NCBI GenBank assembly: GCA_040437565.1
Contig: JBDOQK010000063.1
Location: forward strand, 124,001-188,000
Reading direction: 5' to 3'
Length of the DNA: 64,000 nt
Source: Albugo candida
Taxonomy: Eukaryota
Shown here: one piece after another, positions 50,691-52,650 of the stretch
Layout of the letters: each line of letters starts with the position of its first letter
Position numbering within the stretch: the stretch's first letter is position 1
Notes under the pieces: model-generated
Database searches by the model: none
What the model saw: the letters and a program-made list of their open reading frames with translations, nothing else
What the model was told of the DNA's origin: nothing
Translations under genes and position numbers: made by a program

Positions 50691-52650
50691 TTAAGTAGAA
50701 TTCGTACTATTCTCTTTGGCTGTTTGTACAGCCGAACGCGCCTCCGGAAACATTCCAACGTACTCCTGCGACGATAGAAAACGCACACTGATCTGTCGCT
50801 TATTGAACCATCGTCCATGCATCCTATTTGCGGCTGCCATTGCGCTCTCTTTACGATCAAATAGAATGTACACCAAACCTCCAACCTTTTCCTTCTCCAC
50901 AAAACTGTGCAGCACGGGGCCAAAACTTTCGCATTCTTCGACAACGTCCTCCTGAATTTCTAAATGCCAATCAGGATTCCCACTTCTCTTCTCTGCTTGC
51001 GCGTCAAACATATTTTTCACCACAAAACAGAATGAGGGAACTCCTTCAATCTTTTCAGAAGCCAATGCGGCAGCTCGTTCCGTTTGCGATGTCTCTGGTT
51101 TCCCATAAGCATTGGATCCTACATTTGCGTACATAGTTGACCCTAAAGCAGGATTCGGAAAGATATCTTTTCCACCGGCGAGTTTCGCCATCAAAGCGGT
51201 TCGAGATTGTGAATTGAGAGCCATTCCAGCGCCTTCATCATCGTCCAACTTCCACGTATGCGACCCGTCCATACAACTAAAGCTTCCCATTCCCATTCCA
51301 CCCAACCCCGCATTCTCATTAACCGGTCCGAGCCGTAGAAAATTTCCGTGTAGTTCTAAACCGTTTCCTTTCGATAACGACAAATTCGCTTCCTGTGGAG
51401 TGCCAAACTGTATAAATCCATACCCTTTCGAACGGCCCATTTCGTCACGATTTATATTAACGGAAACGACTTCGCCAAATGAGCTAAAGACCACACGCAA
51501 ATGATCTTCCGTGACATTTGTATGCAAATTACCACAATAGATACGACTTGCGGCGGATAACGAGCCACCCGAAGCCATAGAGCTCGCAATTGCTGCAGCC
51601 AAAGCAGAATTGGAACCATTCGACTCACTCGTTCCAAGCCAATCGGAATTACGCAGAGTGTTTGTCATGACGGTATCTTTCTTTGCAGCAAAGTTCTTTT
51701 CCGCTTCAGAAGCTTTGATCATGACAGGGAAGATCTGAAACTCTGGTATTTGGCCATTTAACAGTAAGACTTTGGGCACATCTTCCAAATTTGACATTTC
51801 GACGTATGCGAATCCTTTGGAGCGATTTGTAAATTTGTCGCGAATCAGTAACACGTGTTCCGTTTTGCCGACTTTGTTAAAATATTTTTCAAGATCTCGT
51901 TCGCGCACTTTTTGTGTCAATTGTCCGATGAAAACAGTTCGATGATCGCGCGTTAATTCCATCAGCTCTTTCTGTTTGGCTTTTTCGGCTCGTTCAGCTG
52001 ACGTACTCCGCCTTATGACTTCTGTTACCTGGGCTGCTGATTTCGATCGACTTGGTTTCTTTCGACTTGAACTTTTGCTTCGACTACGGCTGGGCGTTCC
52101 ATTCGAATGATCGCGGCGTTTTCTACGACGTCGACTTGATCGATGACGATCTTTGGAATCGGATCTTTGACGCCCAGAGCGAGAGCGAGAGCGCGATCGA
52201 GAACGTGAATGCGATCGATATCGATGCCGTGGCCTACGAGATCGACGGTCACGGTCACGGTCACGGGTACCGCGAGACCGTGACTTCATACGGCGCTCTG
52301 TTCGATTGTGTGGATCCTTCTAAAATGTATACAAAACGATAAAAAGATAGAGTTAGCGATGGTCAGAACAGCAACCACACAATATGCAGTGGATAGTGTG
52401 CAACACACAAACTCGACATCCACTCCAAGATGGGATCACTGGCAAAAAGCAATGTCAGAGCTTTGCGTTGCATAGATAGTGATATACACACATGAACGCA
52501 TGTAAGTGTACATTACGAATCGCTTTGTACCTCTATGTTTTTGTCATGTGAATGACGATTTGGTTGCTTTTTTGCATGCGACGAAGGAATTGAAGAGTTT
52601 CGAATTCCTTCTTCCAAAAGTGAGTCAATTTCATCTTCAGCAGCGCCCAT
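50691..52650 (-). CDS. RBM39: RBM39/CAPER-like splicing factor (RS domain, two RRMs, UHM)
   Basis: RS-rich N-terminus, RDHRTVFIGQL RRM1, RIYCGNLHTN RRM2, LDDDEGAGMALNSQSRTALMAKLA linker, VKNMFD...HGRWFNKRQI UHM. Exon 1 (MGAAEDEIDSLLEEG, 52650-52531) is joined by intron 52530-52320. Confidence 0.88.

What the first reader, a model, noticed from the sequence alone, without database searches (positions are those of the whole stretch)
52320..52530. Candidate poison exon in the first intron of RBM39
The intron is 211 bp, about four times the local norm. On the minus strand it holds a second complete acceptor (CTGAC branch point, TTGCTTTTTGC, CAG ending at 52439) followed immediately by TGA. That TGA is in frame with the phase-0 donor GAG|GTACAA at 52530. 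A possible donor ATT|GTGTGG at 52380 would leave a 58-nt cassette and a normal 61-bp downstream intron with its own CTAAC branch point. The cassette folds: AGTGGATG pairs with TATCCACT around an inner GTGTG-TTG-CACAC hairpin. Human RBM39 is known to autoregulate through a poison exon near its 5' end. Inference: the same AS-NMD feedback exists in this oomycete-like genome.
Basis: partly seen in the sequence, partly recalled or inferred. Interest (0 to 1): 0.7.

Follow-up and report, generated by a model that had tools for sequence, protein, structure and literature searches.

The report
Stop-codon splice site in RBM39 intron
In white rust (Albugo candida), the gene for the splicing factor RBM39 has a second splice site inside its only coding-region intron; RNA data from one sample show it is used and stops the protein after 40 residues, which resembles the self-limiting brake this factor has in animals but is built differently.

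Summary
The gene is Albugo candida RBM39. All motifs lie at the stated coordinates. One RNA-like run, of 4 laid and 17 listed, holds the normal joint 52531>52319 and a joint 52531>52438, so the internal acceptor is used. It is not a cassette. From that acceptor the only assembled path runs unbroken into exon 2, and no 52381>52319 joint appears, though contigs drop rare forms. The event is an alternative 3' splice site adding 119 nt with an immediate TGA. Unspliced-intron sequence is also present. No exon junction follows the stop. Decay, RBM39 dependence and conservation beyond Albugo are untested. Best reading: RBM39 feedback by unproductive 3' splice-site choice (0.5); leaky splicing 0.22. 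It is a new variant of a circuit shown in human and suggested in fly. The scan noted this same stretch before and similar SF1/BBP introns in other genomes, but not RBM39 on other DNA.

The parts
52531..52650 (-). RBM39 coding exon 1, 40 codons, with the acidic N-terminal motif shared by oomycete RBM39s
   Evidence: covered by X1 contig 52531-52705
52320..52530 (-). 211-nt phase-0 intron, the only intron in the coding region
   Evidence: joint 52319-52531 in X1; both A. candida annotations
52525..52530 (-). 5' splice site GTACAA, shared by both observed joints; same position in A. laibachii-type proteins
52513..52515 (-). TAA that ends translation of the unspliced form after 45 residues; same codon in the A. 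laibachii-type read-through protein P0136
52479..52516 (-). Predicted 5' hairpin (P2); not significant alone (z -1.68)
52399..52472 (-). Predicted 74-nt hairpin (P3) pairing the internal branch point and internal AG
   Evidence: pair probabilities 0.68-0.997 for the 11 pairs checked, 9 of them above 0.98; branch A paired at 10-37 C; prediction only
52454..52458 (-). Candidate branch point CTGAC of the internal acceptor
   Evidence: consensus match, use not shown
52443..52449 (-). CTTTTTG, matches the human RRM2 motif N(G/U)NUUUG; mostly unpaired in the model; two bases (CC) lie between it and the AG
52439..52441 (-). Internal (proximal) acceptor CAG, used in RNA
   Evidence: joint 52438-52531 in X1
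52436..52438 (-). In-frame TGA directly after the internal acceptor
52320..52438 (-). 119-nt extension of exon 2 kept when the internal acceptor is used
   Evidence: unbroken contig 52292-52440 in X1
52363..52419 (-). 18-codon short ORF inside the extension, upstream of the next in-frame RBM39 ATG
52388..52424 (-).
52375..52380 (-).
52352..52356 (-). Candidate branch point CTAAC of the normal acceptor
52332..52338 (-). Second N(G/U)NUUUG match, near the normal acceptor
52320..52322 (-). Normal (distal) acceptor TAG
50691..52319 (-). RBM39 exon 2: RS region, RRM1, RRM2, RBM39 linker, third (UHM-type) domain; one open frame with no further intron

Best explanation
The intron is a self-limiting splice switch of the RBM39 gene. 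Shown: one donor is joined either to the distal acceptor (full 582-residue protein) or to the internal acceptor (stop after 40 residues, 1745 nt before the normal stop), and unspliced intron sequence also exists (stop after 45 residues). Predicted: a 74-nt hairpin hides the internal branch point and AG, which would explain why the first and better-matching acceptor is not the default, and leaves a CUUUUUG motif open. Inferred: when RBM39 is abundant it binds this motif and stem-loop and helps U2 snRNP onto the hidden branch point, as at the human poison exon, shifting output to the dead-end RNA. Inferred: that RNA is removed by decay that does not need a downstream exon junction, or is simply unproductive (short upstream ORFs, nuclear retention).
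For: Joint 52438-52531 with GT-AG ends in X1, not in two DNA-like runs that span the stretch in one piece. The neighbouring 48-nt JMJD6 intron is bridged by a spliced contig with no unspliced one, while the RBM39 intron has both. The intron is about 3.5 times its three neighbours. It folds at z -3.48, 0 of 200 shuffles; 2 of 189 window tiles tested, of 303, reach that. One difference in 211 nt against a second strain versus 10 in 294 nt of adjacent non-coding DNA (Fisher p 0.03). Donor position and read-through stop kept in an A. laibachii-type protein. Human RBM39 autoregulates by choosing a 3' splice site through a CUCUUUG motif next to the AG (PMC10477243). Vertebrate and fly genes carry stop-containing exons (PMC3176834, PMC10332324). 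RRM1 keeps 5 of 7 named RNA contacts. A. laibachii has UPF1, UPF2, UPF3 and SMG1 (PMC5709506 supplement).
Against: One RNA sample only; contig depths cannot give isoform shares. No test of RBM39 dependence or decay. The same motif also sits near the normal acceptor and occurs 4.3 times per kb. RRM2 lacks the 'key' F259 (T in Albugo and in the oomycete consensus) and probably R329; this was mapped by counting from the paper's numbering, since no call showed the human RRM2 alignment. RRM1 has lost R191. Against all other positions of the laid stretch the strain conservation is not significant (1/211 vs 23/1390, p 0.35), and the non-coding comparison was chosen after seeing the data. No orthologous intron DNA could be fetched. 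No junction follows the stop. The hairpin's own z (-3.48, 3 of 200) is inflated because its ends were taken from the best fold.
Confidence: 0.5

Rival explanations
1. Leaky splicing without a regulatory role: a long intron with a modest donor happens to hold a good cryptic acceptor, so some transcripts are mis-spliced or unspliced and tolerated.
For: One sample; no regulation shown; conservation not significant against the whole stretch (p 0.35); the motif is common; the donor matches only 6 of 9 consensus positions.
Against: A complete acceptor of this kind is rare (11 in 128 kb); the stop is the first codon after it; the intron is unusually structured; the joint is abundant enough to survive contig assembly; the gene family is known for this in animals.
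Confidence: 0.22
2. A selected, regulated unproductive switch driven by something other than RBM39 (life stage, temperature, another splicing factor), or acting by nuclear retention or re-initiation at the next ATG (532-residue form lacking the first 50 residues) rather than by decay.
For: RRM2 contact residues are only partly kept; no downstream junction; a downstream in-frame ATG exists 149 nt after the acceptor; unspliced intron contigs are present.
Against: The predicted hairpin hardly changes between 10 and 37 C, which argues against a simple thermometer; the motif and its place match the human RBM39-dependent site.
Confidence: 0.13
3. The intron is long and folded because it hosts an H/ACA-like small RNA (P3 followed by ACA at 52399-52397, ANANNA at 52485-52480); using the internal acceptor would cut through it, so the two fates compete.
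For: ACA directly follows P3, 15 nt below the upper stem, and an H-box match lies just upstream; both together occur in 0.6% of 20,000 flank shuffles (tested after seeing them, as one of several ideas tried).
Against: No Rfam hit in the intron. The 5' hairpin is short and has no pocket. Freeing the boxes and the pocket costs about 14 kcal/mol. The best rRNA match (10 pairs in 18S) is reached by 295 of 1000 shuffled pockets, tested on non-oomycete rRNA.
Confidence: 0.08
4. One reading: a 58-nt poison cassette (52438-52381) with its own donor is the main alternative form, placing the stop 55 nt upstream of a junction as in human exon 2b.
For: The geometry is possible. Contigs drop rare forms. 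The contig over the downstream half has a lower depth figure (88) than the two contigs feeding it added up (66 + 47), which leaves room for a minor exit, though such figures are not additive: exon 1 shows 198 against 282 for its three exits.
Against: In X1 the internal joint leads only into an unbroken contig running to exon 2, and my arithmetic on the depth table accounts for the bins over the intron without another contig. The donor is weak (5 of 9).
Confidence: 0.07

Closest known systems
Human RBM39 poison exon 2b autoregulation (PMC10477243)
   Same: Same gene family; unproductive event near the 5' end, ahead of the RS and RRM coding region; hinges on a 3' splice site with an N(G/U)NUUUG motif close to the AG; a predicted inhibitory stem-loop is involved.
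   Different: Here an alternative 3' splice site plus unspliced intron, not a cassette; the stem-loop hides the branch point rather than a 5' splice site; no junction downstream of the stop; RRM2 lacks F259; RBM39 dependence and decay not shown.
Vertebrate RBM39 NMD cassettes (PMC3176834) and Drosophila caper stop-containing exons (PMC10332324)
   Same: Unproductive isoforms of the same splicing-factor gene; Caper binds its own RNA.
   Different: Those are animal cassette exons, the first vertebrate one highly conserved; here a two-exon gene in a stramenopile, with conservation beyond Albugo unknown.
Regulated unproductive splicing of SR-type splicing factors in general (PMC3173450 passages; wider pattern recalled)
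   Same: A splicing-factor gene with one long intron that gives stop-bearing isoforms.
   Different: PMC3173450 found no EST/cDNA support for alternative splicing of SR genes in the oomycete P. sojae; RBM39 is an SR-related, not a canonical SR, protein.
Intronic snoRNA switches such as NOP56/SNORD86 (recalled, no call)
   Same: A structured intron whose fold could gate splice-site choice in the host gene.
   Different: No snoRNA family match, no significant target, box C incomplete.

Membership tests
RBM39/CAPER protein family | N-terminal RS region, two RRMs, RBM39 linker, C-terminal UHM-type domain | tested here: met
   PF00076 twice and PF15519 at 59.5 bits, cut-off 23; all three domains match solved RBM39 domains; RS region
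Poison cassette exon, human RBM39 exon 2b type | Own 3' splice site that is used in RNA | tested here: met
   joint 52438-52531 in X1
Poison cassette exon, human RBM39 exon 2b type | Premature stop codon in frame | tested here: met
   TGA is the first codon after the acceptor
Poison cassette exon, human RBM39 exon 2b type | Own 5' splice site, making a skippable internal exon | tested here: not met
   no joint from 52381; unbroken contig 52292-52440; a rare form could have been dropped from contigs
Poison cassette exon, human RBM39 exon 2b type | Exon junction downstream of the stop (50-55-nt rule, recalled) | tested here: not met
   exon 2 is one open frame to the normal stop; only the unobserved cassette would supply a junction
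RBM39 autoregulatory unproductive splicing | N(G/U)NUUUG motif at the regulated 3' splice site | tested here: met
   CTTTTTG at 52449-52443; also present near the normal acceptor, and common
RBM39 autoregulatory unproductive splicing | RRM1/RRM2 RNA-contact residues kept | tested here: inconclusive
   RRM1 5 of 7 identical, 1 conservative, 1 lost; RRM2 by counting: 6 of 9 identical, K322R, F259T, R329N; L256 left out because the numbering was unclear
RBM39 autoregulatory unproductive splicing | Use of the site depends on RBM39 level | not testable with these tools
   needs perturbation
RBM39 autoregulatory unproductive splicing | Isoform degraded by NMD | not testable with these tools
   UPF1/2/3 and SMG1 listed for A. 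laibachii; decay not measured
RBM39 autoregulatory unproductive splicing | Cis element conserved across species | tested here: inconclusive
   1 difference in 211 nt between strains; 4 of the first 5 intron codons and the stop kept in P0136; no ortholog DNA
Box H/ACA snoRNA (features recalled) | H box (ANANNA) and ACA box flanking the 3' hairpin, ACA 14-16 nt from the pocket | tested here: met
   sequence matches only; the H box is partly paired in the best fold
Box H/ACA snoRNA (features recalled) | Two full hairpins with open pseudouridylation pockets | tested here: not met
   5' hairpin at most 38 nt with no pocket; 3' pocket self-paired, about 14 kcal/mol to open with the boxes
Box H/ACA snoRNA (features recalled) | Significant bipartite complement to rRNA or snRNA | tested here: inconclusive
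   chance level, 295 of 1000; non-oomycete rRNA, snRNAs not tested
Box C/D snoRNA (features recalled) | C box RUGAUGA and D box CUGA near the ends | tested here: not met
   the nearest C-like word, at 52439, lacks the final GA; no Rfam hit in the intron
TPP riboswitch or other Rfam family | Match to the family model | tested here: not met
   no hit in the intron up to E 10; none in the window at gathering scores

The most novel reading that the evidence does not exclude
RBM39 self-control by 3' splice-site choice in its first coding intron is older than the split of animals and stramenopiles. Oomycetes keep it as a hairpin-gated branch point that RBM39 itself unmasks, feeding a decay route that needs no downstream exon junction. 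Orthologous oomycete introns would then show the same stop-bearing acceptor in a covarying hairpin.
Probability: 0.2. Interest if true: 0.7.

Novelty: new variant of a known kind. Interest (0 to 1): 0.45.

Why it matters
Unproductive splicing of RBM39 is described in vertebrates and fly. Searches listed no report for an oomycete; I read listings and selected passages, and the library lacks most subscription papers. A used, stop-bearing acceptor in a two-exon gene of a compact, intron-poor genome (68% of genes without introns, PMC3206522) is a small natural test case for two questions. Is the RBM39 feedback ancient or repeatedly re-invented? Can decay in stramenopiles act with no junction downstream of the stop? 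If it is only leaky splicing, it is ordinary.

Tried and rejected
No whole genome is held. Scans for orthologous loci gave nothing usable: metagenomes (0 of 86 candidates, 1 of 81, a 29% match L001 that I did not examine), genomes (0 of 50), viral contigs (0 of 75). No run is on record as RNA ('no RNA holder listed'); X1 is judged RNA from its three GT-AG joints. X1 has no cover at 52706-52749; an uncovered part proves nothing and is not used. Depth figures (169 normal joint, 66.1 internal joint, 46.6 5' intron, 88.4 3' intron) are one number per contig and are not isoform shares. A 12-bp helix pairing the donor with 52340-52329 looked striking (35 of 5000 shuffles) but is not robust: the donor's unpaired probability ranges 0.28-0.97 with the flank chosen; not used. 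That the strain allele at 52524 keeps this pairing is one case and is not counted. RNA thermometer: no change over 10-37 C. C/D snoRNA, riboswitch, tRNA: negative. H/ACA target: chance; the idea of looking in 18S came from memory and was then checked against printed oligos and fetched rRNA. Control-intron folds were unremarkable (z -0.98, 0.78, 0.07; the first was cut 1 nt off its true ends). The exact 40- and 45-residue products are not in the protein collection. The human RRM2 alignment was not displayed. No paper holds PITG_09702. No genome-wide intron length for Albugo was found. PMC13247117, PMC4549623 and PMC7539066 had nothing relevant in the passages seen. Small differences between Phytophthora gene models near the N-terminus could not be turned into intron positions.

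Full report
Identity. The frame 52319-50691 on the minus strand encodes an RS region, two RRMs, the RBM39 linker and a third domain matching solved RBM39 structures. Its closest relatives are oomycete RBM39 proteins at about 56-71% identity. The Albugo candida model KAL0583381.1 (P0123) maps onto the window in exact blocks, and CCI48613.1 (P0122) nearly so; both join exon 1 to exon 2 across the 211-nt intron.

Observation. Every motif is at the stated place: phase-0 donor at 52530, CTGAC at 52458, CAG ending at 52439 followed by an in-frame TGA, a possible donor at 52380, CTAAC at 52356, acceptor at 52320. The three neighbouring annotated introns measure 60, 48 and 75 nt. A branch-point, pyrimidine and YAG filter, set after seeing the site, fires 11 times in 128 kb of both strands and picks the internal acceptor but not the normal one.

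RNA evidence. Seventeen runs hold the stretch, none on record as RNA. I laid four on 52100-53700. X16 and X17 span it in one piece with 26 and 24 differences and behave as DNA of another strain; they share nearly all differences and count as one comparison. X8 did not cover RBM39. X1 has three GT-AG joints: the JMJD6 intron, the normal RBM39 joint, and 52438-52531, which is the internal acceptor. One contig runs unbroken from 52440 into exon 2, and another covers 52411-52560, the unspliced 5' half. No joint starts at 52381. Eight records were laid in X1; seven are numbered in the table, the eighth is the internal joint, and my arithmetic on the depth bins over the intron needs no other. In this graph the internal acceptor therefore leads only to read-through: an alternative 3' splice site that adds 119 nt. 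Limits: one sample; contigs show presence, not absence; depths are not shares; the unspliced contig could be precursor RNA or DNA, although the JMJD6 intron shows only the spliced form.

Consequence. The alternative form stops after 40 residues, 1745 nt before the normal stop; the unspliced form stops after 45. Exon 2 has no further intron, so no junction lies downstream of either stop. An 18-codon ORF and then an in-frame ATG (532 residues) follow the stop. A. laibachii has UPF1, UPF2, UPF3 and SMG1 (PMC5709506; passages and supplement rows). One search listed three papers, none by title or abstract on how oomycete decay works.

Fold. The whole intron folds at -59.6 kcal/mol, z -3.48, 0 of 200 shuffles; 2 of 189 tiles tested (of 303, one random strand each, tiles with N skipped) are as extreme. 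The dominant element is a 74-nt hairpin, 52472-52399, that pairs the internal branch A at all temperatures tried and leaves CUUUUUG (52449-52443) 50-72% unpaired. A helix over the donor is not robust to the flank chosen. These are predictions with no covariation behind them.

Conservation. Against the second strain the intron has 1 difference in 211 nt, adjacent non-coding DNA 10 in 294 (p 0.03) and all other positions 23 in 1390 (p 0.35), counted on the 24 listed places. A read-through protein whose first 40 residues equal the A. laibachii model keeps the donor position, four of five intron codons and the stop (P0136). The A. laibachii model itself (CCA22233.1) joins the same donor to an out-of-frame acceptor about 22 nt into exon 2; its pipeline mixed cDNA and ab initio evidence (PMC3130010, passages), so this may be an error, and X1 does not show it. 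No other oomycete intron could be fetched.

Mechanism. In human, RBM39 promotes exon 2b through a CUCUUUG motif just upstream of the AG, with RRM2 reading N(G/U)NUUUG, RRM1 reading stem-loops, and RRM3 and the RS domain stabilising U2 snRNP (PMC10477243; passages and sections 9, 10, 12, 15). The Albugo site has a matching motif two bases from the AG, in a loop of a hairpin that hides the branch point. I infer that RBM39 unmasks this acceptor when abundant (0.5). Against this, the motif is common and also sits near the normal acceptor, and RRM2 has T for F259, whose loss cut human affinity fourfold (mapped by counting). Rivals: leaky splicing 0.22; regulation by something else or without decay 0.13; an H/ACA-like hosted RNA 0.08 (boxes present, target at chance); the cassette as main form 0.07.

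Comparison. It works like RBM39-type unproductive splicing but is not a member of the poison cassette class: its own donor and a downstream junction were tested and not met. Stop-bearing RBM39 exons are described in vertebrates (PMC3176834, passages) and fly (PMC10332324, passages). PMC3173450 (passages) found no support for alternative splicing of SR genes in P. sojae. Searches listed no oomycete case. I opened only the supplements of PMC5709506; isoform tables in supplements of oomycete transcriptome papers, and closed bioRxiv supplements, could already list this event. PMC3206522, PMC13585763, PMC5010894, PMC13247117, PMC4549623, PMC7539066, PMC8044721 and PMC4860332 were seen as passages only. 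Whether the intron position is homologous to the human one was not tested.

Verdict. The internal acceptor is real and used; the cassette is not supported; feedback is plausible and unproven. New variant of a known kind, interest 0.45.

Noticed in passing
window 54171-50250 (minus): One public model (KAL0583381.1, 1085 aa) fuses JMJD6, RBM39 and a QCR9-like gene; another A. candida annotation keeps JMJD6 and RBM39 apart, so the fusion is probably a prediction error. The fused model also reads through the 48-nt JMJD6 intron that RNA shows spliced.
   Followed up: partly
window 54171-52897 (minus): A JMJD6 orthologue lies directly upstream of RBM39, 246 nt from its ATG. JMJD6 acts on RS-domain splicing factors (recalled); whether the adjacency is conserved was not checked.
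   Followed up: partly
window 52298 (minus), P0138: The A. laibachii RBM39 is annotated as two genes, the first using an out-of-frame acceptor about 22 nt into exon 2; it could be a second unproductive acceptor or an error.
   Followed up: partly
window 16660-16764: A near-perfect 51-bp inverted repeat with a 3-nt loop right after an N gap, with a partial copy at 16518-16559 before the gap; likely an assembly fold-back or a small hairpin element.
   Followed up: partly
window 31440-31650 (minus): Tile with folding z -4.6 and 55% GC inside the frame 30707-31684; no repeat, tRNA or Rfam hit.
   Followed up: partly
window 52935-53132: Contigs of another sequence in X1, X16 and X17 match two short JMJD6 stretches; probably the host's or another organism's JmjC gene.
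   Followed up: no
L002-L049: At least 48 contigs in prokaryote genome records carry a eukaryotic 18S rRNA motif; one was confirmed by Rfam. These look like contaminants.
   Followed up: partly
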